NCBI GenBank assembly: GCA_043228905.1
Contig: JBHGNT010000001.1
Location: forward strand, 7,440,001-7,504,000
Origin: Azolla caroliniana
Taxonomy: Eukaryota > Plantae > Polypodiophyta
Direction: 5' to 3'
DNA length: 64,000 bases
Shown piece by piece: positions 4,301 to 45,864 of the stretch; position 1 is the stretch's first letter, and every line of letters begins with the position of its first letter. The notes below the pieces were generated by a model, which saw only the letters and a program-made list of their open reading frames with translations, had not been told where the DNA came from and searched no databases. The position numbers and the translations under genes are program-made.

Positions 4301-4738
4301 CCTGGAACTCCCAAGGCTGATTTCTGGGTCCAGGAGTTTCTCAACCATAACCTTGCTTGTGTAACCACAGATTTCTTTGTGAGTTTTGTATGCAAGCCGA
4401 ACTTGTCTCTAGATCAGCATGTATTGTATGATTCATTTAGTGCAGTTGAGAAGGTAGTGGCACAGCTGAAGAGCAATGAAAGAGCTGAGAAGAAATGGAC
4501 TGATGCGGAAGCCTGTGATGGTGAAGAGATCCGATGTTCTGTATGTGGCTCATCTGATCGAGAGGATGTAATGCTTCTCTGTGGAGATGATATTGGAAAT
4601 GGATGTGGCATTGCAATGCACACGGATTGTTGCAAGCCTCCTCTTGCTGAAGTACCCGTGAATGACTGGTTCTGTGTGCAATGCACGAAGCCAGCCTTGC
4701 TTCAGCCGAAAAAGAAACCGAAAAGAAAAGTTGTTTAG
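1352..4738 (+). CDS. BRCT-domain protein with C-terminal PHD finger (At4g02110-like), 5' end outside the window
   Basis: Exons 1352-1418, 1504-1548, 1640-3793, 3884-4100 and 4196-4738, all GT-AG and phase-consistent. They give the BRCT end GAKFSLAKQIGLKLVNHKWLEDCLKSWSIL, a long low-complexity linker, the BRCT region THLITVGQLRRTEKFFAAAAAGRWILQDDYL, and the PHD finger CSVC..MLLCGD..GCGIAMHTDCCKPPLAEVPVNDWFCVQC, followed by a basic KKKPKRK tail. Confidence 0.88.
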
Positions 4739-8125: not shown

Positions 8126-8154
8126 GTGTATCTTAAATCATAGAGTCTAATGCT

Positions 8155-10063: not shown

Positions 10064-12319
10064 CTATGCTTTATTTTTCACTCTCAAAGCTTCAACACTA
10101 TCTACTCCTGTTTGCATGTGAGCTTCAGCATATATATTCTTCATGCAGACATATGCAGCAGCACAAGTTTTGTCCAACTGTATCGATTGCTCAAATGCCC
10201 ATAATCCAAGCTCCACATTTACCCACTTGCGACAAGCACCCAGTACAGCCAGGAACAGTGGAAGATGGTCAGAAGTTGACACCTTTTGTAACAAAGCTTT
10301 GGCCTTGTCAAAATGTCCAGCCCTTCCAAATAGATCAATCATACACGTATAGTGCTCTTGAGATGGAGTGAGACAATAAACATCACGCATTTCACTGAAC
10401 AACTTTTCTCCCTCCCTTAAGAGCCCTGCATGACTACATGCAGTCAGCAAGACAAGGAAAGATACAGGATTTGGCACAATGCCTTCTATAGTCATTGCTC
10501 TATATAGATCCAAAACGATATTAATTTGGCCTAAGTGAGAATATCCGGTGATAAGGGCATTCCAAGACACAATATCTCGTTCCGGAAGTTGTTCAAATAC
10601 TTCTTGTGCTTTCTCCAAGGCACCACACTTTGCATACATGTCTAACAATGCGTTACCAAGCACAATATCTTTCTGCAATAGCCCTTGCTTTCTGATCTCA
10701 ACATCCATGTCTTCCCCAATCTCAAGAGATCCTACCATGCCACAAGATTTCATTGCACAAATATAAGTTACTGAATTTGGGCGTATGCCCCCATCTTGCA
10801 TCTTCTTGAAGCATTTAAGGCCTTCATTAGCAAGTCCATGCTTGGTATATCCAGCAATTAGGGTTGTCCAAGACACGACATCCGGCACCAGAATCCTTTT
10901 GAACACTTCCGATGCTTTGTCAAGCATACCACACTTAACATACATGCCTAGCAGAGCATTGGCAATCATAATATCTTTCTGCAATAATCCTTTCTTTCTG
11001 ATCTCAGCATCTATGTCTTCCCCAATTTCTAGAGATCGTACAATGCCACAGGCTTTCAAAACACATATATAAGTTGATGTATTTGGTAAAACCCCCTCAT
11101 CTTGCATCTGGCTGAAGCATTTTAGAGCTTCATCCCCAAGTCCATGCTCAGTATATCCAGCTATCAAGGTAGTCCAAGAGGACACGTGTTTTATTTGAAG
11201 TTGATTAAATATTTTCCGCGCCTTCCCTAATGCACCACATTTTATATACATGTCTATCAATGCAGTGCACAGTGCAGTGTCTTTTTGCAATAACCCTTGT
11301 TTTTGGACCTCAATCTCTATGTCTTCTCCGATCTCTATACATCCTGTAATGCCACAAGCTCTCAAAATGCAAATATAAGTTATTGAATTTGGAAAGATTC
11401 CCTCATTTCGCATCTGCTTGCTGCATCTCAAGGCCTCAACATTGAACCCATGCTCAACATATCCAGAAATTAAGGCAGTCCAAGACACAACATTTCGTAC
11501 TGGAAACTGTTCGAATACTTCTCGTGCTTTCTCCAGTGCCCCACACTTGGCATACATATCTACCAAAGCAGTGTTGAGCATAACATCTTTCTGCAATAAC
11601 CCTTGCTTTCTGACCTCAGCATCTATGGCCTCCCCAATATCTAGAGAGCCGATAACACCACATGCTTTCAAAATGCACATATAAGTCACTACATTTGGGC
11701 ACACTCCCTCACCTTGCATTTGTCTAAAGCAGCTAATAGCATCATCACCTAGTCCATGTTGGACATACCCATCAATGAGGGCAGTCCAAGAAACAACATT
11801 TCGAATGGGGAGTTGTTCAAATACTCCTTTTGCTTTCTCAAATGCACCACACTTAGCGTACATGGCTACTACTGCAGTGCTCAGCACAATGTGCTCAGGT
11901 AATAGCCCCAACTTTCTGACCTCTACATCTATACATTCTCCAACCTCGAGTGACCTTTCAAGTCCAGAAGCTTTCAAAACACATATGTAGGTTTCTAAAT
12001 TAGGTAATACTCCTTCATCTTGCATATTTTTAAAGCATTGTAAGGCTTCTTTACCAAGCCCATGTTGTGTATATCCACCTATAAGGGCTGTAAAAGAAAT
12101 CACATCCCGCTTCAGAAGGTGATCAAACACTTCTTGTGCTTCTCTCAATGCACCACATTTGGCATATGTTTTAATCAGGGCAGTCGCAATATAAATATCC
12201 TTACTAATCAAGTTTTTCCTTAGCAAATCGCCATGTATTTCTCTCACTTTCCACAATTGTTTGTCCTTTCCCAAGGATTTTATGAGCTTCAAGAGCGAAG
12301 ATCGGTCCTGGAATTTCAA
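10064..12319 (-). CDS. PLS-class PPR protein, E-type; true start probably in an upstream exon
   Basis: Very regular ~103-aa PLS triplets and E1/E2 (LGACRKWVNVELG..AAAYVCMKNIY). The ORF call begins at TTG. The frame stays open to about 12460 without an ATG and is preceded on the minus strand by a T-rich tract, suggesting an intron. Confidence 0.9.
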   Translation of the reverse strand: MKFQDRSSLLKLIKSLGKDKQLWKVREIHGDLLRKNLISKDIYIATALIKTYAKCGALREAQEVFDHLLKRDVISFTALIGGYTQHGLGKEALQCFKNMQDEGVLPNLETYICVLKASGLERSLEVGECIDVEVRKLGLLPEHIVLSTAVVAMYAKCGAFEKAKGVFEQLPIRNVVSWTALIDGYVQHGLGDDAISCFRQMQGEGVCPNVVTYMCILKACGVIGSLDIGEAIDAEVRKQGLLQKDVMLNTALVDMYAKCGALEKAREVFEQFPVRNVVSWTALISGYVEHGFNVEALRCSKQMRNEGIFPNSITYICILRACGITGCIEIGEDIEIEVQKQGLLQKDTALCTALIDMYIKCGALGKARKIFNQLQIKHVSSWTTLIAGYTEHGLGDEALKCFSQMQDEGVLPNTSTYICVLKACGIVRSLEIGEDIDAEIRKKGLLQKDIMIANALLGMYVKCGMLDKASEVFKRILVPDVVSWTTLIAGYTKHGLANEGLKCFKKMQDGGIRPNSVTYICAMKSCGMVGSLEIGEDMDVEIRKQGLLQKDIVLGNALLDMYAKCGALEKAQEVFEQLPERDIVSWNALITGYSHLGQINIVLDLYRAMTIEGIVPNPVSFLVLLTACSHAGLLREGEKLFSEMRDVYCLTPSQEHYTCMIDLFGRAGHFDKAKALLQKVSTSDHLPLFLAVLGACRKWVNVELGLWAFEQSIQLDKTCAAAYVCMKNIYAEAHMQTGVDSVEALRVKNKA

Positions 12320-12959
12320 TTCAATGGATGCATTCTCTTTGAGCTCGGTTAACTTGAGCTTAAACAGAGGTGGGTTATCCCATCCCTCTATCCATAAGGG
12401 CTTTCTTGTTTGTTTGTCTCTGAAGTCTGTAGATTTTGGGCTTCTCTGTGATGGAAAGCTTTAGGTTCACAAAGTAAAACAAAAACAATGCAAAAACATA
12501 AAAGACAAGATAAATGAAATAAAAAACACAAGATAAATGAAATAAAAAACACAAGAATAATTTATAAAATACAAAAGAAAAACTTGGATTTCTTGGTGAT
12601 GAGAAATTTAACGGTGAAACAAAAACAATTGGGCTTCTGAATAATGAAAAGATTTAGAGCTCAAAAAAGAAGTCTTTAGAATCAAAATTGAAGAAATGAC
12701 AGGGGATTGTTTGATTCTTTGTTTGCTTTATGTACCTTTTGTTGTCGATGATCCCAGAAAGCAGAGGGGTCTTCGAAGAACACATTCCGTAGGAGGTTTG
12801 TGACTATGAAAGATATGATTGATTGCAACAGAGGGCAGTATTTTCTAATCAATGATAAATGAAAAGATAAATGATCATTAATATTTCCAATTAAGATTCT
12901 TTGTCTGCAATCCTAAGCTTCTGGTGGAGATGGATATGATATTGTCAGAAATGTCCGTA

Positions 12960-14689: not shown

Positions 14690-14956
14690 GAGAGAGAGAG
14701 AGAGACCATTCACTTAGGCACCACCAGCGCTGATGCTTTTTCTCTTTCTTAATTTATCGCCTAGTTTACTTTTAATGCATAACCTAATAAGAGATTATGA
14801 AAGAATACCACAAATTTGATGCCATACATATAATTTGTACATCACATACATACACATATTATGACAGATACATGTGCAATGGGTAGGGTAGATATATACA
14901 TATATTATATATCATAGCCAAATTCATGGGCTGATCTTAGTGGGCATGCTTCTTGG

Positions 14957-17888
14957 ATGTCTCGGCATCATCGGAAGTCCCGGAGGTCATTTATATGGCT
15001 TCCCTATTCTCTGTTATGTCTCTTTGTTTTGATTGCACTGAGTTGGTCAGTTTGGAATATTGGTCTAAAAGTTTTATTGAGCCAAACATTGATGCATGAA
15101 GAAAACAAAATTTCAATACCCATTTTGCAAATCAAGAGTGTGGATTTGGAGGATTTTCAAGCTGATCATTATAATGACCCATGGAAATCACAGAACAGAA
15201 CATCTGTTTCGTCCATAAACCAGGAGTTTATTTCTCCAATTTTCCAAAATGAAGATAAATCTGATGAAAATATGATCTCCCCCATTGGTTTTGTAAAGGA
15301 ATTAGAACTGAGTGTAGATTTGGAAAGAGAGATTGTCTCCAATAAAAATCAGTCATCGAGTGTTTTGATAAAGGAATTAACCTCACCACAACCCAAGGCT
15401 TCATCACGCCATTTGGATAGAGATCTGGTTCCTAATGCATCGCATCATGTATCAACTTATACAACTCACCAAGGTTTCTCTAATGGTATGCCTCACAAGT
15501 GAGTTTTGCAATCTATATGAAACAATGGAAATAATAATCACCAAATCTCGTAATTTATATTGTAAGCTACTCAAATTAATCTTTAGTCTAATAAAATATG
15601 TTTTGAGCTACTTAAATTAATCTTTAGTCTTGCAATTTATATTGTAAGCTACTCAAATTAATCTTTAGTCTTGTAATTTATATTGTAAGCTACTGAAATT
15701 AATCTTTAGACTTGTAATTTATATTGTAAGCTCTGTCATGACACATGAGTGATTTCCAATTAATTACTTCATTTTGAGTTCATAATTGTATTTCTTGTTA
15801 AGATCACTTCTGGGGAGTAACCTAATTTTGCTCCCTCTTGTAGTAGTAGATCATGGAAAGGTGGTCAACATCAGAATCAATGGCATCGATGATCCTTACC
15901 ATGATCAAACAACTTTTAAAGAGGATTTCAACAAGATGCTGCCCACATTCAAGATATTTGTCTATCCTCATAATATGCGAAATGATCCATTCTCTAACAT
16001 TTTTGCACCGATGGATGGGGAACCTAGTGGCAATTATGCCAGTGAATACTATTTCAAAAAGTCCCTTTTCAACAGTGGTTTTATTACCAAAAATGCATCC
16101 GAGGCCGACATGTTTTATCTCCCATTCTCGATTACAAAGTTAAGACATGACAAACGAGTCGGGGTTCAAAAGCTGGATAAGTTTGTGTCATCATACATGG
16201 AAACAGTAAGGCAAAAGTGGCCATATTGGAATAGAACATCTGGGGCAGATCATTTCTTTGTTTCCTGTCATTCTATCACTAAATTGGTATCAGACAAAGT
16301 TGTGCACCTTAGGAGAAACGCCATTCAAGTGGTTTGCTCTTCAAACGTATTTGTGCAAGGGTATGTGCCTCATAAAGATATCTCAATGCCTCAAGTGTGG
16401 CCAAGGAAAGGCACACCATCAAATGCAAAGCTTATAGAGGAAAGGTTAGTACTACCAAACTATGTTAAATTTGCCTTATTAATTTCCGCATTCTGTTCAT
16501 CGCCTCTCTCTCAATGATTTGGGTCAAGAAAAGGTACTAATGACCAATTGGGTAAATATTCCTTGTTCTCACATCCCCTTTTTCCTTAGTAAAAGCATTA
16601 TGTGTAGTAGATGAACGTGTATGTGGAATTTGAGATATGTATATGCAGTTTTCTCATACTGAGCAATTAACTTTATCTAGTATAATCATTGATTGATTGA
16701 TTGATTAATCATGCCACCATCTCAACTCTATATCCCACTTACCTGTATCTAGTATAGTGATTGATTAATCATGGCACAATCTCAACTCTAGATCTAACTT
16801 AACTATATCTAGTATAGTGATTGATTAATCATGCCACAATCTCAGGTCTAGATCTAACTTAACTATATCTAGTATAGTGATTGATTAATCATACCACAAT
16901 CTCAATCTAGATCTAACTTTTATCTCTCGATAATGAAGCTTGGCAATTGCATTAGTGGTGACTACTTGATTTAATTCTTTCATCCCCTTGGAAGGTTAGC
17001 TTCCTAATTGTACTTATTTCATATAAAAAAAGTTTAGCACCTAATTGTTGCTACATATTTCATATAAATTTTTTTTAGCTTCCTAATTGTTACTACTTAT
17101 TTCATTTCATATAAAAAAAGTTTAGCTTCCTAATTGTTACTGCTTATTTCATATAAAAAAATTTAGCTTCCTAATTGTTACTAATTTCATATAAAAAAGT
17201 TTGGCCACTATTTATTTCATATTCATTTCTCTTAATTGGGGGGAAGGGGGGGGAGAGGGTTGAACTACTAAGTCTAAGGCTTCACAAGGCACCAATCCAA
17301 CCCACTAGGCCCAACTTATTTGACACTTGATATCAAAACCATTATTTAGAAAGACCCCAAATGTAGCTTTATGTCCTTGTATGTTTTTTTCTCTTTTGTT
17401 TCAGAAAAGTTTTGGCATTCTTTGCCGGAGCTGCAAATTCACCCACACGAGCAGAATTAGTCAAGGTGTGGTCACGCGATAAAGACATTTTAGTCTATTC
17501 AAAGCGTATCTCGACACCATACTCGCGGGCGTTGCTTACAAGCAAGTTTTGTCTCCATGTGAAAGGTTACGAGGTGAATACCGCCAGAATAGCCGATGCG
17601 ATGCATTTTGGATGTGTCCCTGTCATCCTAGCTAATCACTACGACCTTCCTTACTCGAATATCTTGGATTGGGAAGCTTTCTCTCTTGTTGTAGAAGCCT
17701 CCAACATTCCATTGTTGAAACAAATCCTCCAAGAGGTGTCGTCAGCTCGATACAAGCAATTGCAAAAGAATGTAATGATGATACGAAAACACTTCCAATG
17801 GAACTCTCCACCACGTGAATATGATGCTTTTTACATGGTGATGTATGAACTATGGACAAGAAGGCATGTTTTAAGACCCTTAATCTAA
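14957..17888 (+). CDS. Exostosin-like GT47 glycosyltransferase (type II membrane), about 537 aa
   Basis: Exons 14957-15485, 15844-16444 and 17405-17888 are phase-consistent. N-terminal TM helix, then FKIFVYP, GNYASEYYF, ADMFYLPFS, PYWNRTSGADHFFVSCH, SKFCLHVKGYEVNTARIADAMHFGCVPVI and YDAFYMVMYELW. The exon-1 donor and exon-2 acceptor have alternatives. Confidence 0.9.
15550..15732. repeat. 41-bp minisatellite in GT47 intron 1
   Basis: GTAATTTATATTGTAAGCTACTCAAATTAATCTTTAGTCTT unit at about 15550, 15632, 15673 and 15714. Confidence 0.9.
16668..17200. repeat. Two minisatellite arrays in GT47 intron 2 (60-bp unit at about 16668-16925; ~43-bp unit at about 16996-17200)
   Basis: Repeated ATCTAGTATAGTGATTGATTAATCATGCCACAATCTC and TTAGCTTCCTAATTGTTACTACTTATTTCATATAAAAAAA. 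Confidence 0.9.
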
Positions 17889-20636: not shown

Positions 20637-23600
20637 ATGGATTCCGAGCGCCCATGGCAATCTTATCATACTGTCTTCACCAATGCTAAAGCAGGTAAGA
20701 CGAAGAAGAAGAAGAGCCGCACTTTTCTTTTGAAAAAAAAAAATGTTAAACAAGATCTGAAGAGACAAAATGGGACTCTTCATTCTTGTTTCTTTGTATG
20801 CTAGGATTATATGCTGCTGTGTTCAGCATGTTTTTGGAGATTAAGCTTAGGAACAACCTACTTGTTGAGGAAATACTTGGAAGTAGTTGTCCTTCTTTCT
20901 GGCTGAATACATGGTTTTTATTGTTCCTTTTCGAATTTCTATAGACTCCAAAAACATGTTAAAAAATATAATCGATTTAATAAGACTGAATAGAATTGTT
21001 CTAATCTCGAACATACATTAATCAATGAGGAAATTAATCGATACAATTCTATTCAAATTCACGTTTTTTAAATAAGAGCTTCACATCCTCTTTGGGAGCC
21101 ATAGATTCAGTTACAAGGCCATTGTGACTAGTTTCAGAAGACGTTTGTCAATATGGAACATGGAAAAATCAACGAACAAATTAGAAATACAATTCTATTG
21201 AGTCTATTAAATCAATTATATTTTCTAACATTTTTTTGGAAGCCATAGAAATTTAGAAAGGAAGAATAAAAACCATGGATTTAATCAGGGAAAAGTGAAA
21301 CTACTGGCAACCATCAAAACCAATACTGAACATGCACCGAGATCTATATTATTTCCTAGATTTCTTACAAACGAAGGCGAAACAAAATGAGACTGATATA
21401 TGTATCAACTCCCATTTAAAAGAAAATATAATGCATGGGAGAAATAATTCAATCACGGTTATTAACTCAATTGTGATTGGCATTTTGAAGCCAATACCTC
21501 AATCTATATAGTACAATCAATCTCTTGGTGATAGTAGCTAGAAAATGGCTTTCTTAGAGCCCCAAACCGAAACCACGCATTCACACATTGTAAATTATCT
21601 ACAGGCGAAAATTTGAGCACACTTACCAAAGGATGAACAGATTCTGGGATCAACTTAAGGAAAAGATCATATTATGCTTCTCTTTATGCTGCTGCTGATG
21701 TGATAATTTCACCTGAAGTACATTCTCTTCCTATATGTTATTTAAACTTTTTGCAAAACAAGTGGTTTTGTTAGAAACACAAAAGTCATGATAGTAAGAA
21801 ACTGAGCAGCCAAAGGCCTACACATGATTCACCTGCAAGGGTGAAAACGTTGGAATAATGATCCCTTTCAACTATTTGAGCATTGATGCACCAGAAAATA
21901 ATGGGTAAAGTGCATGTATATGAACATGTTAAAGGCTGAACGGACCAGCAATAGCATGGAATAGACGGTGATAGAGATGAAAGCTGGAATTCAATTTTGG
22001 TTTATCAAGTAGAAATTTGGGGAGGAGCCATATCTCAATCTAGATGGACGACATCGAAATAGCATAATTTATTTTTGAAAGGTGACATTCAAGTGTCAAA
22101 CGAACTGCCCTGCACCTTATCTATTGGATAGAAATAGTATTCTTACATTTGTCAATGTGAATCTATATCAGCTCCCCAAAGAATAAAAAAAGGGAGAAAA
22201 ATGAAGACCACATATGCAGACCTTAGTTTAGGTATGTCATTGCATTGCTCAGTCTATTATGAGATCAGAAGAAGTTATTAATCTCTGTTTCGAGAAGGAA
22301 TCCGACCTCTCTGTGGGGCAAGGGAGTACAATAGTCAAAGATACTTATCTCTCTTATATCTAGAGATAAAGAGACATAGAGGGAACTTTCTTGAGGGAGA
22401 AGTCATACTCACAAATGCGCCTCAGCAGAGAACTTTTACAGATTTCTTCTACATGGATACTACTAGGGATGATCCTCATAATGTACAAAAAAACCTTCCA
22501 CCCAAAGTGGATTTAAGACTGAGAGGAGTCACAATGGCTAGAGACCATTGGTCTTTGTTGTAGATGTTGTGAATAGGAGCATGGATCTGGGAGCATCAGA
22601 TGGCATCCGAGACACCCTTCATGTATCACTGAACTTTCCATATTGGATCAACACATGACTTCCGCTTTCAATTGGCAGCAATTTCAGGTTCAATGATCAG
22701 CCACCAAATCTGATTGTTGGTTATTTGTGATAACAATTTCATGAAGGGAAACAGGGTAGGAAGCCATTTTGTTTCATTACTGACATTGAAAAATTAACAT
22801 AAATAGTTGTCATCTTTATCAGGTGCTATAGGTCTTTTGTAGATACTAATATATGTTACTTTTTTCTTTCTAAACTGATTTGGTCTTCACCAGGAGTTAA
22901 TATAACTTTCTTTTTATCTAATCCTCAGCACTTTGAAAGCTTTCTTCATGACTATGTGTTTTTTATATTTCCTTATCTAAAAAGCTTTATTTAACAATCT
23001 ACTAATTGCTTGCTAGAATTCTTAAACTATATAAGAGAGTCATAAATCTCGATAGTATGGTAAAAGAAATCTTAATACTTCTCAGTAATTTTCTTGCATT
23101 ATTCTGCAATATGCTCGAAATGCAGGAATGGATGGAGTGGACAAAGAGAAAGTTCAGAAGGTGGTTTATGAGATGACCAAAGGGTCAAAATACTTTGAAC
23201 ATGAACAGAGAAAAGAAGCCATAATATTGCAACGCATTAAACACATGGAAGCGCAAGCTGCTCTTTTAACGGAAGGTGAACTTGTAAACTACAAGAAGGT
23301 GGTTACTAAACATATTGTAAATATAAATATACATATCTGAGGAGTATGATCAATCTTCTTCCAAGCTCCAGCATGCAAATGCAGTTGACACCTTTGTTCA
23401 AATAGTGTGCTCATGTGCTCATATGCTTGGAGATTTAGAATACATGATACACATATGATTGGGTAAATGTGTTTGGTTTGGCATTCTCAGTTTCTCATTC
23501 ATATTCGTTTTGAATGTTACCATTTGGAAGTTAGATTGTCATAAAGGACTAGCCATATAAACAAATTGGAATTGTAAACATATAGGTCTTGTTCTAAGCT

Positions 23601-26600
23601 TAAAATGCAAATAATCTTAACACATTTTGTTCACATTGTGTGCTCATGGTTGGATATTTAGAATATAGATATATAGTTGGGTGGGGTTTAGGAACAAAAT
23701 TTGCAAGTGTCCTTGTCACTTGCGATTTCCAATTTGTACTTATTGGCTGGATGTTTAATATTTGGAAATTGGATTGCCAGTCATTTCTTCATCATATTCA
23801 ACATGCATATAAACTTTTACAAGCCTTGCCTTTTCAATTTATAGGTGTGTAAAACAGAAATGTTCTAGTAGTGAATTGTCAAATTGTTAAGTCAAAGCTG
23901 TCTCTTAAATTTTTGGCCTGCGGGATTGCTTTCCCATCTCAAAATTTCAGCATATCTGCTTAGTTTCAGTTAACCACATTGTTGTATTTTGGTTAATGTA
24001 GGCTGCAGATATGAAAATTACTGCTTTGGAGGCTGAAAGGAACCTCTCCCGTATTTGGATGCATGTGGATCTTGATGCATTCTATGCTGCTGTTGAAACA
24101 CTAGAAGATCCATCTCTTGCTGCCAAACCAATGGCTGTAGGAGGGATGTCAATGATATGTACAGCAAATTATGAGGTCTTAGATCTGATTCAATTGAATT
24201 TGGGTGGTAAATTATCTGATTTAATTCTTGGGCCCAACTAGTAAGCACATTCATGGACATTTGTATGTTCTGTGTATAGGCTCGCAAATTTGGTATCCGG
24301 GCAGCTATGCCAGGCTTCATTGCTTGTAAATTGTGCCCAGACTTGACATTTGTTTCTCCAAATTTTGAAAGATATACAGAGTATAGTGAGAAAGTGCGCC
24401 AAGGTATTGTCACCATTTAGTTACTGAGGAGGAAAATTAAGAAGCTTTGATGCTTAACTGTTATTGTTGTAACTTGTCAACATCATCATCATCATGAAGA
24501 AATTAAATTTTTTTATTAATTATGTGAATGGTGGCCTACTTCCATTGTTGTTATAGATTTTCATGCATTTTCGTGGGGATAGTGACAATCTCCTCTGTTT
24601 ATTAAATTTGGATTATGACAGTTTTTCGTCAATACGATCCTCATTTTGTTGCAAGGAGCTTAGATGAGGCATACTTGGATATTACTGAGCAATGCATGCA
24701 ACGCAATATGACTTCCGAAGCAGTAAGTGCGTGATAGAAATTTTCTACTAATACATCCTATAAATATTCAATGTGCAGACTGACACATTCATCTCAAGTT
24801 AGCAGAGGAACTTCGGACCCGTGTACGAGAGCAAACAGGATTAACATGCAGTGCTGGGGTGGGGCCCAATCGCATGATTGCTAAGGTATTTTCTCATGCC
24901 AAAGGTATCAGATTGATAGTATTTGAAATGGAATCGTATATATCAATGTTTTTGTGCTTTACATTTCTCACTCCTCTGACAATGCAAATAGAGATTTCAT
25001 AAGATTGACCATACTATGCATGAAGAAATCCAATTATCTTATACTTGCCAAGCTGTAAAGATTGGCATTTGCAGCTTGCATGCAAGTGTGTTGGATCTAT
25101 CTATTATTTATTTTTGTCTATTTTTTCATTCTTATTTTGACATTGGTCAAGAAGATACCATCATTAATGAGAATCCAGTGAAAGATACCTAAGGAAGATT
25201 TGTGTGGGGTACAAGAAAAGAATGCAGTTCATATAGATCCGGGGGGTTGGAACTAAAATTAGCTATGAGACTAAAAGACTCAAAATTCTGCCGTAAAAGC
25301 TGAACTGGAGGAGATAGAAATTCGGTTTAATATTTCTCTCTAGCAACTGTAGTGCTCGTTTTTTGGAGTTTAAGAGGGGTTTCGTAGCTCAATCATTTTT
25401 GGGAAAATATTCTTTGCCTCCAATCTATACTATATTTTGATTACTGAATTATTGTTTATTAACATGTCTTTTGAGTACAGGTGTGCTCTGATATCAATAA
25501 ACCAAATGGGCAGTATGTAGTTCCCAATCAAAGGGCAGCAGTCATGGCATTTGTGTCAACACTACCCATAAGAAAAGTGCAGTTGTTATCCTATTTCAAT
25601 ATGTGTTATCTTTTAAGAATGCTATATAAGATTTGAACTTCTTGCTGGCAGGTAAGTGGCATAGGCAAAGTAATGGAACGGTTATTGAAAGAAATCTGCA
25701 GTGTCTATGTGTGTGAAGATTTATTAAAGCAAAGAGCCCTCATTGTAGCTCTATTTTCTTCTATATCATCAGGTGTATTTGATTACTTCACACATACTTC
25801 AAACTTGTTTGGGTTGGAATCTATACTTAGCATGTACATATTCATAGTATATCTAATCAATTAAGAATTGGAGAAAGATGATAGATGGTAATTGGTTGGA
25901 CAACAACCTCAGAATCATATTTGAAATATTTTCCCAACACTAAATTTCTTGATAAGGCTGTGCACTACAGACTTCTTGATGTCCGTGGGTTTGGGCATTG
26001 GAGGATCTGATACCCCTCTGGAGGAATCACGGAAGAGCTTGAGTTGCGAGCGCACCTTTTCTGCGATCAGCAGTGAGGAAAAGCTATTTGCAAAATTAGG
26101 TATCTCTGCTCTATAAAGTAATGTGAATATATAGCATCAAACTTATATCAGAGTTGTGTTCCTGTGTTGATATTATGAACCACATTTTGTCATCTGCATA
26201 AGTAATTTCCAAGGATATGTATGATCCCTACTCCCCATCTCTCCTCTTTTTTCTGATAGATTTTACTGTTTTTTCATTCTTTTTCTATAAAAACTTCTCA
26301 TTCCGTACATAATGCCCAAAGCCACAGATGCTACCATAATGTGTGGCCACATTTGCTGACATGCAATAGAGAGCTGATTGAAATACCCAAATTTCTGGAC
26401 ATGATAAGATTTTTCATGCAGAAGAAAACAATAGTGCACAACCTTTATGCCTGGAGAGAGAACTTCAGGCATTGCACCAAGAAGCTCTTTAAGTCATAGC
26501 TCTGATAAGCTGAAAGAAAGGGCATCGAGTCTTTTGAGTGTAGACTTGAAAGTAGACTTACGAGCCGTCTTATTCCATATTGCATGCTGCATCACCATTC

Positions 26601-29600
26601 ATTACACAAATCTAAATTGCTTAGGCTCCAAGGAATGCACTATTCAATTATAACTTGCACCAAATTTCTTTTGGTAGAGATTTGAAAAACCATATCGATG
26701 TGCTACTGTTAAGAAAGCATAAAAGAAATCACCATCATCACCGCAGAAAGTGTTCGAATTGGATTGCACCAAACTACGAAATGGAAGAAAACTTGAGAGA
26801 GAAATAGCAGGTCTATGCTATGGTAAATCCACAACATAGACGTTTCCTCAAAAGATACAACTCCGAATTTGGGTTCATCTGGGACTTTAGGGAACTGGCT
26901 AATGGCTATAGTCAGTCTCCAAAATCTGTGGGAACTAATTCACCAAGTCCAAGAACAATTCTGTAAGGATTTGGATAAGAATGACAACTTAGCAGCGCAA
27001 CAACAAAGGATGCTCAAAACAGACATAAAGGAGGGGCTGCAGGCTTGGTAGTTGCTTAGGCAAATTTCCAAATCCAAAACGCTTGATAGTTTTGTAAGTG
27101 ATAAATTATCAGAATCCCCTCCACTATCTTATTGTCGAGTTTTGTAAACAAAAATCACGAGCTCTAGATAGTATTTTCCTTTTACTCTTGCAAATTAATC
27201 TCATGTACAGTAGAGATTCATTTATGTACTTTTAACACTTCATCCTACTTAACCTTTAGTTCATATAAGGTTATTGTCATCAGATCTATCAATGTGATCT
27301 GTTGTTTTTATGTAATACAGAAGAGCTTGCAGAAAGTCTCTCAAAAGACATGGCACTTGAAGGTCTGCAAGGTCGTACATTGACATTGAAGCTCAAGACA
27401 ACAAACTTTGAGGTAAAGTAAAAAATCATGTACCTTATTTATCATGTTCAAAGCAGTAAAGAGGATCATGCACTGTGAGATGAGAAGACTGATGCAAAAA
27501 ATTATGAAAATTCAGAGTGATAATGATGATATATTAACATCCGGGGTAAACATGAACCATAGAAGTAACTATGACTAAAAACACTCCGAAATGCGTTTAG
27601 ATGGGAGATTTTAAAATAGTAAAAAGAAAAAAATAAAACCTGAAATGAAGAACTAAGCTTGTTTTCTAATTTCACTGTTTGAACTTCCATGAGTTTGGTT
27701 CTGTTGTTTCATCCTTTTATGAGTTCTTGAAAGCTAGTGCAACCTTACGGGGATTCCTGAAAACTCTACCTGATGTGTTCACTATGTTGAGGCATTCTAA
27801 AGCAACAGCTTCTCTGTTTCCACTATGTTGAGCCAACATACATCACGTGTTCTCTTTTCTTGCTCAATATCCAGCCTATCATGGTTTCTATTTTCAATAT
27901 TTCTAGACATGGCCCAATCAATGCGATACCACAGCTCAGTTGATTCAGCATTGACCAACTGTCCTTGATAATTTTCCCAATATTTAATATTCAATTTGAG
28001 TGATTAAACATGGACTCAGGTTCGTATGTCCCTTTCTTTTCCTTTATGTGCACTCAGATATTCTTCAACATGCCATTGTTGTCCTGAACGTTTTTTATGC
28101 ACTTGATTAATGGATGAAGAAATTTTTTGTGATTTTTTGCGGTAAGCATCCAATTTCCCATTCGACATTGGTGACACAATTCTGGAGCATTGCCCTTACT
28201 TTCAGTATATACTTGTGCACTCTTCAAAGGGCATAAAACTCTATTGACCTTTGTCCAGTTTCTAGAAGCATTATGGATTATAGGGTTGTGTCCTTAACCC
28301 TTTTTTTGTGTATTCTCTATTTCATTGCAGGAGGTTGCTGAAAAACCTCCACAAACCTCAACTGGGAGAGGAACAGGGAGAGAGAATGAGAAAAAATGAA
28401 AGAAAATTATGGTAGCGTCTACTAGAGGCAGAAATCTGCCTATGAGACAAATTATGCTCACAAATATTGGTGAATTCAATTTATAATAAATGATGACTGA
28501 TGAAGTAACATACTAACATTGTAATAAGTTACAAAAAATAGTGTCACAAATCTGTGAATCACTCTAGACTCATATTCATCTCATGGTCACTCGGCACTTC
28601 TCTCACTCTCAAACTTGGAATGCTGACAAGGAATCCATTACCTCCACTGGCTTAATAAAATGTCATTTATTTGCAGCATAAAATGTTATCCATGTTCCTT
28701 GTACCTGTATTTTGGCTCTGAAGGTACCATGTATTTTTGCAGGTTCGGACAAGATCTGTATCATTGCCCTTCCTTGTCCACAAGAAAGAAGACGTAATGT
28801 TTCATGCTACAAAGCTTTTGAAAGCAGAGCTACCTATATCGTTGAGGTTGATGGGTAATGATGTAATGGATATAAATATAAATGCAATATTGAAATAGAT
28901 AGTTTAATGAGATGGTTTCGTTCTGTATTTGTGCTTGGATATAGAAAGAAAGAAAGATATATTAACATCTTCTAAGAACAAAATTGGCCCATGATACAAT
29001 TGGTTTACAACAAAAATAGGGTATTTACCCATTCATCGAAAGTAAAAATAAAAATAAAAATAAATAAAATAGAGAAAATGGGAAACTAACCAGCTTCAAA
29101 TGGATGATAGGTCTCCGTATATCTCAGTTTCATGGTGAATCAATTGACCCTAATCAAAGGACTTTGGCAGACTTCTTTATTAAACCAGTCTGTGGTATCA
29201 AAACGTACTGTGAGGACGAAGACCCTACGCAGAAAACAGATATGGAAATTACCAATACCAACATAGATGAAACTATGTGTAGCACTTTACCTTCTCTAAA
29301 CACTGAAAATGTGCTACAACCTTTTGACACACCATCGAGCTCAGCTTCTAATTTGTGTGTTTCAGCCAATGAGATTGATGAAATAGCAACTTCATCTAGG
29401 TTAGACTTTTCTGACACCATGACTTCATGGAAAGCATCATCAGAATTTGAGAATTGTAGGTTTCTGAGTTCTGTTACATGGACTGACGACCACTGCTCAA
29501 TTTGCAAACTAGAAATTCCATCTGACTTCACTTCTGAGAGGCAAGAGCATATGGATTTTCATGTTGCTGAAATGCTGCAGCAAACATATTCGAGTAGTGA

Positions 29601-30347
29601 TCACTTGATGGAGCTTCCTAAGAGCTTCCAAAAAAGCAAAAGACTTAGGTAAAATTAAATATACTAGATCAGTATAGTGTGTTTGTAACTTGGTGGCTTA
29701 TGTTGCGTATTGTTTTTTACCTAATGCAGCTTAAATACGAACATGGAAATTACCAATACCAACATAGATGAAACAATGTGTAGCACTTCACCTTTTCTAA
29801 ACACTGAAAATTTGCTACAACCTTTTGACACACCATCGAGCTCAGCTTCTAATTTGTGTGTTTCAGCCAATGAGATTGATGAAATAGCAACTTCATCTAG
29901 GTTAGACTTTTCTGACACCATGACTTCGTGGAAAGCATCATTAGAATTTGAGAATTGTAGGTTTCTGAGTTCAGTTACATGGATTGACGACCACTGCTCA
30001 GTCTGCAAACTAGAAATTCCTTCTTACTTCACTTCTGAGAGGCAAGAGCATATGGATTTTCATTTTGCTGAAATGCTGCAGCAAAAATATTCGAGTAGTG
30101 ATCACTCCATGGAGCTTCCTAAGAGCTTCCAAAAAAGCAAAAGACTTCATAGGTAAAATTAAATATACTAGATCAGTATAGTGTGTGTTTGCAACTTGGT
30201 GGCTTATGTTGCGTATTGTTTTTTCCCTAATGCAGCTTAAAGACGAACAAAGAGTTGGCCCCCAAAAAAGGGCGTATGCATAAGGCTGAGGAATTGAAAG
30301 AATCTTCCAAATGCCTTCCGATAGATGCTTTTTTCTCAAAAGCTTGA
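20637..30347 (+). CDS. POLK: DNA polymerase kappa (Y-family, DinB), about 779 aa including the duplicated exon
   Basis: Exons 20637-20694, 23126-23298, 24002-24175, 24280-24403, 24622-24722, 24799-24885, 25481-25576, 25652-25772, 25971-26099, 27321-27412, 28743-28854, 29111-29648, 29730-30152 and 30236-30347 sum to 2340 nt, in frame. Motifs: NAKAGMDGVDKEK..GSKYF (N-clasp), HVDLDAFYAAVE, ANYEARKFGIRAAMPGFIA, SLDEAYLDIT, TCSAGVGPNRMIAKVCSDINKPNGQ, RKSLSCERTF, LRLMGLRIS, zinc finger(s), and a C-terminal PIP-like IDAFF. Confidence 0.93.
20877..21310. mobile_element. Long imperfect inverted repeat (MITE/foldback-like) in POLK intron 1
   Basis: 20877-21005 (..CATGGTTTTTATTGTTCC..AATTTCTAT..AATAGAATTGT..CTAAT) is the reverse complement of about 21180-21310. 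Weaker similarity extends to about 20770 and 21420. Confidence 0.7.
26300..27130 (-). mobile_element. Probable degenerate L1-type LINE 3' fragment in POLK intron 9
   Basis: The minus strand shows GG..F followed by FWIWKFA and further Trp-rich remnants (WTW, EIWCK, AIWNK), typical of the post-RT region of plant L1 ORF2. Heavily disrupted. Confidence 0.4.
29242..30248 (+). repeat. ~500-bp tandem duplication inside POLK (29242-29742 / 29743-30248)
   Basis: Manual alignment gives about 19 substitutions, one 3-nt exonic indel and one 2-nt intronic indel. Confidence 0.97.
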
Positions 30348-31312
30348 GCTCATATGAACTCATTATCCATCCACCACAAAATTATACAGTTATAGAAAAG
30401 TTTAATAAATCTATTGTATAGAAAATTGAATGCTCCTCACATCTAGCCTATAATGAGCTTGAGCTCCATATGAACTTATGCTTTATTCTTTACAAAATTA
30501 TACATTCATAGAAAAGTTGAGGCAGGCTATTCTATCGAAAATTGAATACTAGTCACCCCTATCCTCACCTCAGTCTATAAAGATATGGCACAGTAGTGTT
30601 GAACATATTGTTATCTATAGCTGTGATTTGAATCCCTGGTATCTTTCCAAATGCTTTGGTTTTCAAGACCAAATTTGGTAACCATCAGTAATCAACAAGA
30701 AAGCATGCTAAGCGTTCAAGTCTTTGTAAATCACACACACCTTTAGAAAATGTAGGTTGTATTCACATCCTCTTTGGCCCAGCTGAAAGGTTGAGCATTG
30801 TAATTATTATTTCATTTTTGGATTGATAGGTTAAAATATATGAAAAATGGTGTACATAAATAAGGCATGATATCAACGTCCAACTTATCAAGCATAACAA
30901 CATAGTGTTTAGATTCTTTACAAAGCGGCTATCTAGGTAGTGATTGGTGTCTTGCCAAGTTTGTGACCAAATGTAAATGAACATTTGTGAACTAGTATTC
31001 TAATGTGAAATGGCAAAATGCATGTTTAGAGTTTTTGAATTTCTCTTGCAGACTATTTAGTTAAACTGGCCAAACAGCTCTTACACCCCTTTGATTTTAG
31101 CCCCCTACCATTGTAATGAAGTCATATACAGAGCAGACTAAAGATTAAGAGTAGTGGATGATCTCTAGGCAATAGTTTGAATTAAGAAACTCAAAATACA
31201 GTTATTTAGAAATTCAGACATGATACAATCTAATGCAGATATTTTATCCTTAGTGAACTGCATTGAGATAAATGTCCATGTAACATAGTTTTCTAGGTTT
31301 TAGTTGCTTTAT

Positions 31313-42700: not shown

Positions 42701-42813
42701 TGAAAGAGAACTATAGATGTGTGTGAGGGATATATCGCATTATTTATTACTTTTCTCATCTACTGCAGAATGGAGGGCCCAGACCTACAGGTAAATATGA
42801 CGACATATAAGAT

Positions 42814-45800
42814 ATGCAAGGGCAATGGAGGCAACAAAGGAATTGTTTTGGGATTGATGTTTTCTGTGGGCTCCGTGTTTACTCCATGGTGACTATGAAA
42901 GGAAGTGTGCGGCCTTCAATTACTTGTAAAGGTGTTCAGCTTTGCAAAGCGTTTAATACAGCTGATCATCAAGGACATATGAACCCTCCAGAGATGTACC
43001 ATAGTCTTCTCCAGAGTTGCATTAGGAAGAAGGATATAATAAAAGGTAGAAATCTACTTTCCTTGCTAACTTGTAATGGACTTGCTTCACACCCATCTTT
43101 TGGGGCCATTCTAATTAGCATGTTTGGCACATGTGGTAACTTGCAAGAAGCACAATGGTTGTTTTGCAGGTTGCCTCACCCTAATCTCTTTTCATGGACT
43201 GCAATAATATTGGCATATGCCAGGCTTGGCTATGGTGAACAAGCCATCAATATTTACCATCAAATGGATCATCTAAAACCCGATGAACATTTGTTCGTTT
43301 CTATACTCAAGGCGTGCATGGTTGGAGAGTATCTCATGGAAGGTATGCTCTTTCATGGTCATATCATTGAAGATGGGCTTGAACATCATACTGTTGTTGG
43401 AAACTCTGTAATTGAAATGTATGTTAAATATGGGATGCTTGAAGAGGCAGGCAATGTGTTTTCCTCTTTACCCAATCCATCTGTGGTCACATGGTCCATT
43501 GTAATAGTAGGTCTTGTAGAGCAAAGACAAAGTAGGGAAGCCATATGGCACTTCTGGCAGATGGAATTTGAGCCAGATAGTGTTGTCTTTGGCAATGCAT
43601 TGAAAGCATGCTCGTCACTACCAAGTCCAGATGAGGGTAGACTGATACATGCTAAAATCATTGAAGGTTGCCATGAAAAATCTTTACCAATCAATAACAG
43701 TCTTATTGAAATGTATGCCAATTCTGGCAGCCTGGAAGATGCACAAGGAGTTTTTATTAGAGCTCCTCAGCGCAGTATCATGGCATGGCATGCCCTTATT
43801 AGTGCAAATTTGCAACAAAGGGGCCGAGATGAGGATGCACTCTGTCTACTGCGGCAAATGGAATGGAATGACATTCAACCCACAAAATTAACATGGAATT
43901 TAGTCATTTCAGGACTTGTTCAACAAGACAAGGCTGACAAAGCTTTTCAACTATTCCTGGAGATGTTAAATAGAGGAATTAAACCTGACTCTGGTGTCCA
44001 CATAAGTACTCTGAAAGGTTGTACAAATATTAAGCTTGCGTGGATAGTTCATGCTCATATTGTTGAAACCTATCATGAAATGGATTCAACTATTAGGAAT
44101 ACTCTGATAGACATGTACGCAAGATGTAAAAGCTCACATGATGCATGCAGCATGTTCAACAGTTCATGGAAAAAAAATGTAGTCACGTGGACTGTGATGA
44201 TAAATTGCCATCTTTTGGAAAGAAACTATGATGAAGCATTTCTTTTGTTTGAGCACATGCATGAAAGTGGAGTGAAGCCCAATCATGTTACATTTCTTAG
44301 CATGCTCAAAGGATGTTCAACAGATGCATGCATAAGAAAGGGTGGAGCTGTACACCATTATATAGTTCGGTCTCATTTTGAGATGGATGAACTTATATGT
44401 AATAGTCTTATCGCCATGTACACAAGATGTGGGCTTTTGGATGATGCATATTGTGTGTTCAAGGGAATGTTGCAGAAAAGTGTGGTGACATGGACTGCGA
44501 TGATTGCAGGATATTCTCAGAATGGGTGTGTTTTAGAGGCTTCTACACTGTTTCAACAAATGCATGAGGATGGTGTACAACCTAACAATATTACTTGGAA
44601 TGCGATGGTTGCTGGGTTTGCTGAGCAAGGGCATAGTGAAGAAGCTATTGAAGTCTTTCAACACATGCAAAAGAAGGGCCATCAACCAGATGATGTCACA
44701 TTCATCGGCCTTTTGAAAGCATGTGGCAACTTAGCTCTACTGAGCCAGGGTGAGGCGATTCATTCATTGATAATTGAAGATGGCTATGATGGTGATGTCT
44801 TTGTTATAAACACGCTCATTGATATGTATGCAAAATGTGGCAGCATTGCGCATTCACGTAGAGCTTTTGATATCTTGCCAAAGCAAGATATAGGGACATG
44901 GAATGCAATGATTACTGGATATTCGTATTATGAAGAAGATGAGAAAGCTCTTTCGTTGTTGGAAAAGCTAGAGCAGGATGGCATATCCCCAGACCATACC
45001 ACCTTTCTGAGTGTATTATCATCATGTTCAAATATGCTGGCCGTAAGTGAAGGGAAACTAGTTCATTGTCTCATGGTTGAAAATAATCTCATCTCCGATA
45101 AGCTCTCCTGTAATGCACTTATAGACATGTATGCCAAATGTGGCAGTCTAAATGATGCTTATAGTGTGTTTGAAATGACCCTCCATCGTGATGTTATCAC
45201 TTGGAGTACAATGGCAGCAGGGTATACACAACAAAACAAATTTGCATCTGTGATTGAAGCTTTTGAGCAAATGAAACGTGAAGGCCTTGAACCAGATGAT
45301 GTGACGTTTCTCGGCCTTCTCTCAACATGTGCTCAGATGGGATTTCTACATGAAGGCTGTTGGTTGTTCTCATCAATGACTGAAATTTATGGTCTTACAC
45401 CAAAAATCTCTCATTTTAATTGTCTAGCTACGCTTATTGCCAATGCAGGTTGTTGGAATGAGGTTGATGATTTCCTACAAACGATGCCATTCCACCCTGA
45501 TATAATTGGCTGGACATCATTGTTATCGCGTTGTCGGTCACATGGAAATGTAGAGAAAGGAGAGCGATTCTTCAAACAAGTACTCACAACAAATCATAGG
45601 GATGCTGCTAGCCTACAACTGATGTCGAATATTTATTCCGAGGCTTGTATGCGAAGGAATGGAAATGAGATTGGAGAGCTAAAACAGTTTGTTAATTCAT
45701 GGAAGAAGCCAGGGAAGGCCTTCATAGAGGTTAATGAAATTGCCCATGCCTTTGTTGTGGGAGATACAACCCATGGTCAAAGTGATTTAATCTATTCAAA

Positions 45801-45864
45801 ACTTCATAGCTTGGCTATTAAAATGAAAAGTGAAGGTTACACACCTTATGATAACCAAATGTAA
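42814..45864 (+). CDS. PLS-class PPR protein, 1016 aa, with E1-E2 and the N-terminal part of a DYW:KP-type domain (truncated)
   Basis: Intronless ORF with more than 20 PPR motifs. The C-terminus reads PDIIGWTSLLSRCRSHGNVEKG..LMSNIY..NSWKKPGKAFIEVNEIAHAFVVGDTTH..MKSEGYTP and stops before the HxE/CxxC zinc site. Confidence 0.93.
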   Translation: MQGQWRQQRNCFGIDVFCGLRVYSMVTMKGSVRPSITCKGVQLCKAFNTADHQGHMNPPEMYHSLLQSCIRKKDIIKGRNLLSLLTCNGLASHPSFGAILISMFGTCGNLQEAQWLFCRLPHPNLFSWTAIILAYARLGYGEQAINIYHQMDHLKPDEHLFVSILKACMVGEYLMEGMLFHGHIIEDGLEHHTVVGNSVIEMYVKYGMLEEAGNVFSSLPNPSVVTWSIVIVGLVEQRQSREAIWHFWQMEFEPDSVVFGNALKACSSLPSPDEGRLIHAKIIEGCHEKSLPINNSLIEMYANSGSLEDAQGVFIRAPQRSIMAWHALISANLQQRGRDEDALCLLRQMEWNDIQPTKLTWNLVISGLVQQDKADKAFQLFLEMLNRGIKPDSGVHISTLKGCTNIKLAWIVHAHIVETYHEMDSTIRNTLIDMYARCKSSHDACSMFNSSWKKNVVTWTVMINCHLLERNYDEAFLLFEHMHESGVKPNHVTFLSMLKGCSTDACIRKGGAVHHYIVRSHFEMDELICNSLIAMYTRCGLLDDAYCVFKGMLQKSVVTWTAMIAGYSQNGCVLEASTLFQQMHEDGVQPNNITWNAMVAGFAEQGHSEEAIEVFQHMQKKGHQPDDVTFIGLLKACGNLALLSQGEAIHSLIIEDGYDGDVFVINTLIDMYAKCGSIAHSRRAFDILPKQDIGTWNAMITGYSYYEEDEKALSLLEKLEQDGISPDHTTFLSVLSSCSNMLAVSEGKLVHCLMVENNLISDKLSCNALIDMYAKCGSLNDAYSVFEMTLHRDVITWSTMAAGYTQQNKFASVIEAFEQMKREGLEPDDVTFLGLLSTCAQMGFLHEGCWLFSSMTEIYGLTPKISHFNCLATLIANAGCWNEVDDFLQTMPFHPDIIGWTSLLSRCRSHGNVEKGERFFKQVLTTNHRDAASLQLMSNIYSEACMRRNGNEIGELKQFVNSWKKPGKAFIEVNEIAHAFVVGDTTHGQSDLIYSKLHSLAIKMKSEGYTPYDNQM

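What the first reader, a model, noticed from the sequence alone, without database searches (positions are those of the whole stretch)
29242..30347. Recent in-frame exon+intron duplication gives Pol kappa a second ubiquitin-binding zinc finger on a new cassette exon
Seen: a ~501-bp unit (3' part of exon 12, the intron and the first 13 nt of the last exon) is tandemly duplicated at about 96% identity. Splicing AG|gt at 29648 to cag|C at 29730 continues in frame (S-L-N-T-N-MEITN..), so a new 423-nt, phase-symmetric exon (29730-30152) and a new intron have arisen. Both copies keep C-x2-C-x14-H-x3-H and the Asp in EHMDFH(V/F)AEMLQ. There are no stops, the only exonic indel is 3 nt, and the PIP-like IDAFF tail is retained. 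Known: this motif resembles the UBZ3 finger of Pol eta (EHMDYHFALELQ), which binds ubiquitinated PCNA, and mammalian Pol kappa has two UBZ fingers. Inference: an independent, young origin of a tandem-UBZ Pol kappa, with exon skipping able to switch between one-finger (~638 aa) and two-finger (~779 aa) isoforms. It is also an intron gain by tandem duplication caught early. Caveat: about 11 amino-acid differences against about 5 silent ones do not show strong purifying selection.
Basis: partly seen in the sequence, partly recalled or inferred. Interest (0 to 1): 0.8.

Follow-up and report, generated by a model that had tools for sequence, protein, structure and literature searches.

The report
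Fern DNA polymerase with doubled finger
A 501-base tandem duplication in a fern's damage-bypass DNA polymerase kappa gene is real and spliced into mRNA, so the predicted protein carries two likely ubiquitin-binding zinc fingers where other plants have one, but the extra finger is likely a tolerated accident rather than a regulated switch.

Summary
A 501/506-nt unit (end of exon 12, the intron, 13 nt of the last exon) is duplicated head to tail in a fern POLK gene (19 substitutions, two small indels). It is not an allele mis-assembly: copy-specific contigs have about the depth of single-copy flanks in two DNA studies, and the chimeric junction occurs in an independent DNA run and in an RNA-like run. 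Both new splice junctions (29648>29730, 30152>30236) are seen in spliced contigs; the skip junction was not seen. The predicted 779-aa protein has two Pol eta-type (UBZ3, CCHH) fingers 140 aa apart; 120 of 120 plant homologues examined have one. The event postdates the split from a single-copy relative and is roughly half that old. Selection on the extra finger is not shown (pN/pS 0.49, p=0.11). Best reading: a lineage-restricted, mostly included, near-neutral domain duplication that offers a natural one- versus two-finger test.

The parts
20637..30347 (+). POLK (DNA polymerase kappa) gene, 14 coding exons, 779 aa (638 aa without exon 13)
   Evidence: Gene model; 60-68% identity of the one-finger form to the closest homologues, among them named fern Pol kappa proteins; junctions of exons 10>11 and 11>12 seen in run X6 (on a contig with a few differences from the window)
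29111..29648 (+). Exon 12: end of the little-finger domain, linker, finger 1
29242..29742 (+). Duplication unit 1 (407 nt exon 12 + 81 nt intron + 13 nt copied from the last exon); carries 14 of the 19 substitutions and both deletions
29494..29562 (+). Finger 1 core, C-x2-C-x14-H-x-D-x-H (aa 551-573), UBZ3 type
29649..29729 (+). Intron 12 (81 nt), copy of the ancestral last intron; its retention would stop the frame at once
   Evidence: spliced out in run X5 (joint skips 81, GT..AG)
29730..30152 (+). New chimeric exon 13 (423 nt, phase 2-2): 13 nt from the last exon joined to the 3' part of exon 12
   Evidence: junctions on both sides
29743..30248 (+). Duplication unit 2; closer to the ancestral state (5 derived substitutions); 1-nt microhomology at the breakpoint
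29995..30063 (+). Finger 2 core (aa 691-713), UBZ3 type
30153..30235 (+). Intron 13 (83 nt, ancestral length)
   Evidence: spliced out in run X10 (joint skips 83, GT..AG, 0 differences); L001 alignment
30236..30347 (+). Last exon: basic patch PKKGR (30261-30275, NLS-like, inferred) and PIP-like IDAFF (30321-30335), stop
   Evidence: a like [ILM]xx[FY][FY] tail in 113 of 120 homologues

Best explanation
A tandem duplication copied the last intron and the zinc-finger half of exon 12 of a fern Pol kappa gene in frame, both new splice junctions are used in mRNA, and the likely main product is a 779-aa polymerase with two predicted ubiquitin-binding fingers, the extra one likely tolerated as near-neutral redundancy. 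Shown: the duplication, its reading frame, both junctions, the one-finger ancestral state. Inferred: the duplication arose by end joining or replication slippage (1-nt microhomology, no inserted bases); it survived because the copied exonic length was a multiple of three and each intron copy kept its own splice sites, so the basic patch and PIP-like tail stay in frame; finger 2 keeps the ancestral distance to the PCNA-binding tail and finger 1 the ancestral distance to the catalytic core, on a linker predicted to be disordered; either finger would bind ubiquitin on modified PCNA through its D(-4)-A(0)-L(+3) helix, giving at most modest extra avidity.
For: DNA: in X1, copy-specific contigs at depth 50.5 and 52.6, flanks 51.8 and 49.7, a largely shared stretch 88.5; in X2 (another study, with its own SNPs) 13.7 and 14.2 vs flanks 17.6 and 19.5, plus a contig over the chimeric junction 29653-29772 with 0 differences. 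RNA: X5 joins 29648>29730 (45 nt on the short side), X10 joins 30152>30236 from copy-2 sequence with 0 differences; X6 has both copy-specific contigs at 4.6 and 4.2 and none in the two short introns. Ancestral state: 120 of 120 homologues have one finger; L001 runs exon 12 - intron - last exon once. Fingers intact: all 11 residues invariant in a 45-sequence alignment are kept in both copies; finger region modelled at pLDDT 88-97 with short strands and a helix, linker 51-66. Near-neutral: pN/pS between copies 0.49, not different from neutrality (p=0.11); the linker changes at pN/pS of 1 or more between relatives; 12 other short tandem duplications lie in the same 64 kb; in vertebrate Pol kappa the proximal finger was dispensable in extracts and in a screen (PMC11832425 passages).
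Against: No listed contig spans both copies; the junction contig in X2 has 30 letters past the breakpoint, one short of the tool's bridging rule, and X1 may be the source sample. Contig depth is a rough guide to copy number. The two junctions come from different runs (labelled organisms C and D), at depth 5.6 and 2.9, so a full two-finger mRNA is inferred, not read end to end. Neutrality is a failure to reject with 16 changes; the duplication is present in several samples and neither finger has lost a ligand, which selection would also give. No binding was tested.
Confidence: 0.62

Rival explanations
1. Adaptive tandem fingers: the second finger raises avidity for mono- or poly-ubiquitinated PCNA and has been kept by selection, converging on the vertebrate two-finger layout.
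For: Both fingers keep all invariant residues; spacing 140 aa is near the 155 aa of human UBZ1/UBZ2, both of which bind ubiquitin by NMR (PMC8526622 passages); pN/pS between copies is below 1 (0.49); found in several samples.
Against: Inside the finger, 4 replacement and 2 silent changes since duplication versus 2 and 5 on the outgroup branch (Fisher p=0.29): no sign of tighter constraint. Copy 1 has Thr at the W+1 position, seen in 0 of 120 homologues. Four random replacements would miss 11 invariant of 35 codons about one time in five (my estimate). An open frame is required anyway to keep the tail.
Confidence: 0.17
2. Regulated cassette exon: exon 13 is skipped in some tissues or after damage, switching between 638-aa and 779-aa forms.
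For: The exon is phase-symmetric and the skip is in frame; Arabidopsis POLK makes tissue-specific splice isoforms (PMC7042379 passage).
Against: Only inclusion junctions were listed; copy-specific contigs have like depth in X6 (4.6, 4.2) and X10 (3.5, 2.9); the two introns carry nearly the same splice signals. Contigs lose rare forms, so this bounds but does not exclude skipping.
Confidence: 0.1
3. One finger is already decaying: the proximal copy is losing function and acts as a spacer, the distal copy doing the work.
For: 14 substitutions and 2 deletions map to unit 1 versus 5 to unit 2 (exact p=0.064; with indels 0.027); 3 of the 4 finger replacements are in copy 1.
Against: The excess is strongest at silent and intron sites (7 vs 1) and weak at replacement sites (7 vs 4, p=0.55), so it does not point to relaxed protein constraint; Pfam scores are equal.
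Confidence: 0.09
4. Assembly artefact: two alleles or homoeologues joined in tandem.
For: No listed contig spans both copies; some runs hold two divergent haplotypes of this gene (X3, X5, X6).
Against: Copy-specific depth matches flank depth rather than half of it in X1, and is about three quarters of it in X2; the chimeric junction exists in X2 DNA and in X5 spliced contigs; the second haplotype in those runs differs from copy 2 at 29 sites, not at the copy-1 sites.
Confidence: 0.02

Closest known systems
Land-plant DNA polymerase kappa (AtPOLK type; IMS, IMS_HHH, IMS_C, one zf_UBZ PF18439)
   Same: Same catalytic core, same C-x2-C-x14-H-x-D-x-H finger, PIP-like tail; one-finger form aligns end to end with fern homologues.
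   Different: Two fingers 140 aa apart and one more exon and intron; 0 of 120 homologues have two.
Vertebrate Pol kappa with UBZ1 and UBZ2
   Same: Two fingers on a long flexible tail, similar spacing (140 vs 155 aa), PIP motif at the end.
   Different: Vertebrate fingers are RAD18-like (UBZ4, CCHC), these are Pol eta-like (UBZ3, CCHH); here the copies are 91% identical and young.
Pol eta UBZ3 finger (PDB 3WUP)
   Same: CCHH ligands and D(-4)-A(0)-L(+3) helix motif; same Pfam family; top sequence hit in the PDB, though weak (E=1.1).
   Different: Longer C..H spacer (three more residues in the alignment); plant Pol eta itself lacks a UBZ (PMC6794406, PMC8784325 passages).
Internal (intragenic) tandem duplication with exon and intron copying; intron gain by tandem genomic duplication
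   Same: A local duplication adds an exon and raises the intron count by one.
   Different: No new splice site was created; the intron-gain class requires novel sites (PMC3443670 Table 1 note and section 8).

Membership tests
DNA polymerase kappa (Y family, DinB branch) | IMS catalytic core with acidic motifs and end-to-end similarity to Pol kappa | tested here: met
   DLDAFY and SLDEAYLD motifs at aa ~100 and ~190; 60-68% identity to the seven closest homologues tested, including named Adiantum Pol kappa
DNA polymerase kappa (Y family, DinB branch) | Translesion or mismatch-extension activity | not testable with these tools
   No assay
UBZ3 ubiquitin-binding zinc finger | CCHH zinc ligands | tested here: met
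   Both copies; definition from PMC4267625
UBZ3 ubiquitin-binding zinc finger | D(-4)-A(0)-L(+3) on the helix and PF18439 above cut-off | tested here: met
   D-F-H-(V/F)-A-E-M-L in both; 30.2 and 30.0 bits vs 25.6
UBZ3 ubiquitin-binding zinc finger | beta-beta-alpha fold | tested here: inconclusive
   Copy-2 model has short strands then a long helix at pLDDT 88-97; Foldseek gave only weak zinc-finger rows, top TAX1BP1 UBZ at E=2.6; VIA-align gave only generic helices; copy 1 was not folded
UBZ3 ubiquitin-binding zinc finger | Binds ubiquitin | not tested
UBZ4 (RAD18/vertebrate Pol kappa type) finger | CCHC zinc ligands | tested here: not met
   Fourth ligand is His in both copies and in 120 of 120 plant homologues
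Cassette (alternatively skipped) exon | Both inclusion and skipping junctions in mRNA | tested here: inconclusive
   Inclusion junctions seen; skip not listed in 3 of 3 runs with spliced contigs; contigs drop rare forms
Intron gain by tandem genomic duplication (novel splice sites) | New donor or acceptor made from duplicated exonic or latent sites | tested here: not met
   Both sites of intron 12 are copies of the ancestral intron's sites; criterion from PMC3443670

The most novel reading that the evidence does not exclude
A fern has independently evolved a vertebrate-like two-finger Pol kappa from a different finger type; the second finger is selected because it raises avidity for ubiquitinated PCNA or ubiquitin chains, and damage-dependent skipping of exon 13 tunes how much error-prone polymerase reaches stalled forks.
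Probability: 0.12. Interest if true: 0.7.

Novelty: new variant of a known kind. Interest (0 to 1): 0.38.

Why it matters
No other two-finger plant Pol kappa was found among 120 homologues examined, and plant Pol kappa is barely characterised (PMC6801657 passage). The gene supplies a natural matched pair, a one-finger ancestral form in close relatives (and apparently in the same two-haplotype samples) and a two-finger form, for asking what a second ubiquitin-binding finger adds to translesion synthesis. It is also a cleanly polarised example of domain gain by exon-plus-intron duplication. If neutral, it is an ordinary structural variant with no new biology.

Tried and rejected
Own genome: none held, so no paralogue or genome-wide check. 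No listed run is on record as RNA; X5, X6 and X10 were taken as RNA because their contigs are spliced. The skip junction was not listed in any run; this is absence in contigs, not proof. X8 and X9 are low-depth, unspliced (X8 runs into the intron) and show pieces of both copies, no junction. X3 (organism B): I first read record 22 (copy-2 body, copy-1-like end) as an ancestral single copy, then dropped that because bubble removal in the assembly can make such mosaics; inconclusive. P0123 looks like the same kind of mosaic. Fold searches gave no significant match. Tandem Repeats Finder missed the unit because its longest period is 500. The representative search gave 63 hits: 60 with one stretch, 3 unrelated repeat proteins; many are single-exon fragments that could not show a second finger. 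The metagenome scan gave 1 locus from 202 pattern matches. Literature searches listed no paper on fern Pol kappa or this duplication (search 46: 15 of 170 listed, none of them on ferns by title or abstract start); one search gave nothing close; one search gave nothing I read, so error-prone copying as the cause of the copy-1 excess rests on recall only. Earlier scan findings: none by words or sequence. Supplements were not consulted.

Full report
Observation. The window holds a 14-exon gene (20637-30347, + strand) whose introns all have GT..AG ends and whose frame is open for 779 aa, or 638 aa without exon 29730-30152. The one-finger form aligns end to end with its closest homologues, named fern Pol kappa proteins among them, at 58-68% identity and with two seed-plant ones at about 50%, so this is a fern POLK; the genus was not determined. 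The duplicated unit is 29242-29742 and 29743-30248: 19 substitutions in 501 columns, one 3-nt exonic indel, one 2-nt intronic indel, and a single shared base at the breakpoint. Each copy encodes C-x2-C-x14-H-x-D-x-H and scores above the cut-off of Pfam zf_UBZ.

Is it real? I laid 8 of 24 listed runs, all as assembled contigs. In DNA run X1 the copy-1- and copy-2-specific contigs have depth 50.5 and 52.6, the flanks 51.8 and 49.7, and a stretch largely shared by both copies 88.5. In X2, from another study and with its own SNPs (10 substitutions and 2 gaps in 1771 nt of flank), the copy-specific contigs are 13.7 and 14.2 against flanks of 17.6 and 19.5, and a contig covers the chimeric junction (29653-29772, 0 differences, depth 11.2). 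Two alleles would give half depth and no such junction. Caveats: X1 may be the source sample, contig depth is rough, no listed contig spans both copies, and the X2 junction contig has 30 letters beyond the breakpoint, one short of the tool's bridging rule (30 is the overlap expected of 31-mer graph nodes; my inference).

Is it spliced? X5 has a 428-nt contig joining 29648 to 29730 (skips 81, GT..AG, 45 nt on the short side, 4 differences from copy 1, depth 5.6). X10 has a contig joining copy-2 sequence at 30152 to 30236 with 0 differences (depth 2.9) and a separate copy-1-specific piece (depth 3.5). X6 has exact copy-1- and copy-2-specific contigs at 4.6 and 4.2 and no cover in the two short introns. 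No 29648>30236 skip was listed in these three runs. So exon 13 is used and looks mostly included; rare skipping cannot be seen in contigs. None of these runs is on record as RNA, X5 and X10 bear other organism labels than X1 and X2, and X5 and X6 also hold a second, divergent transcript of the gene (29 differences over 385 nt) that shows no duplication junction.

Ancestral state and age. Of 163 homologues found, the 120 listed all have exactly one finger, by motif and by a profile built from them; lengths up to 1159 aa were searched, so a two-finger form could have appeared. Of 61 further proteins, 58 have one finger and 3 unrelated repeat proteins none, but many are fragments. A close relative's contig, L001, runs exon 12, intron, last exon once (a low-coverage contig, so collapse is not strictly excluded). 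The copies differ by 3.8%, each differs from L001 by 7.3-9.0%, and X2 differs from the window by about 0.6%. The duplication is thus younger than that split, about half as old, and older than the allelic divergence between samples.

Selection. Between copies pN/pS is 0.49 (10.5 replacement, 5.5 silent; p=0.11 against neutrality). Against L001 the finger is constrained (0.14-0.17) and the linker is not (1.1 or more). The divergent transcript in X5 gives a like picture (18 replacement, 10 silent among 28 listed sites, 3 and 6 in the finger; classed by hand). Since the duplication the fingers took 4 replacement and 2 silent changes, against 2 and 5 on the outgroup branch (p=0.29). All 11 invariant residues survive in both, which is weak evidence given so few changes. 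Polarised on L001, unit 1 carries 14 substitutions and both deletions, unit 2 five substitutions (exact p=0.064; 0.027 with indels); the excess is mainly silent or intronic (7 vs 1) and is unexplained. Twelve other short tandem duplications lie in the same 64 kb, so such events are common here.

How it likely works. The copied exonic length is a multiple of three and each intron copy keeps its splice sites, so splicing inserts 141 residues (linker plus finger) ahead of the basic patch and PIP-like tail. The model of exon 13 has a low-confidence linker and a confident finger of short strands and a long helix; fold searches were not significant. Both helices carry the D(-4)-A(0)-L(+3) motif that the Pol eta UBZ3 uses for ubiquitin (PMC4267625, passages), so both would be expected to bind ubiquitin; this is untested, and I found no test for any plant Pol kappa finger in the passages read (PMC6794406, PMC6801657). 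In vertebrates both fingers bind ubiquitin by NMR (PMC8526622, passages) but only the distal one mattered in extracts and a screen (PMC11832425, passages). The simplest reading is redundancy with at most modest avidity gain (0.62); adaptive avidity (0.17), a regulated cassette (0.10), a decaying proximal finger (0.09) and artefact (0.02) are the rivals.

Comparison with the known. It is a plant Pol kappa with a duplicated UBZ3-type finger. It resembles vertebrate Pol kappa in layout (140 vs 155 aa spacing) but not in finger type (CCHH vs RAD18-like CCHC). It raises the intron count, but by copying an existing intron, which the intron-gain review leaves out of its tally (PMC3443670, passages and section 8). 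Arabidopsis POLK is known to be alternatively spliced (PMC7042379, passage), which keeps the cassette idea worth a test. Searches listed no paper on this gene or event; the library lacks most subscription papers. PMC8784325 was read in passages only; papers listed in searches and not named above were seen as listings only.

Verdict. A real, expressed, lineage-restricted domain duplication: a new variant of a known kind. Interest 0.38: well supported and testable, but no evidence yet that it changes function.

Noticed in passing
window 29242-29742 vs 29743-30248: The upstream unit carries about three times as many derived changes as the downstream one (14 substitutions + 2 deletions vs 5), mostly at silent and intron sites; cause unknown.
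   Followed up: partly
runs X3, X5, X6 on window 29110-30634: Each holds a window-like and a divergent (about 7-8%) haplotype of POLK, as in hybrids, allopolyploids or mixed samples; in X5 and X6 both are spliced, so one- and two-finger transcripts appear to coexist.
   Followed up: partly
window 29479-29494 and 29980-29995; P0183, P0125: This lineage has one residue fewer between the invariant Trp and the first Cys of the finger than the other plant Pol kappa proteins aligned.
   Followed up: no
window 29242-29478 vs L001: The linker before the finger shows more replacement than silent change between relatives (18 vs 1 for copy 2, 16 vs 4 for copy 1).
   Followed up: no
window 30341-30565: Older 115-nt tandem duplication (76% identical) in the POLK 3' UTR, partly covered by L001 too.
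   Followed up: no
window 9680, 15546, 16698, 16992, 31313, 33340, 38712, 40163, 46383, 55349, 63228: Eleven more short tandem duplications (period 79-261 nt, 72-98% identical); coding status not checked.
   Followed up: no
window 28943-29016: A very high-copy short repeat in POLK intron 11 (summed depth over 100,000 in DNA runs), MITE- or SINE-like by guess.
   Followed up: no
window 1599-4738, 5654-8137, 10064-12460, 14918-17888, 42811-45864, 56243-58496: Neighbours: a BRCT plus PHD-finger gene, three PPR genes, an exostosin GT47 gene, a MORN-repeat PIP5 kinase.
   Followed up: no
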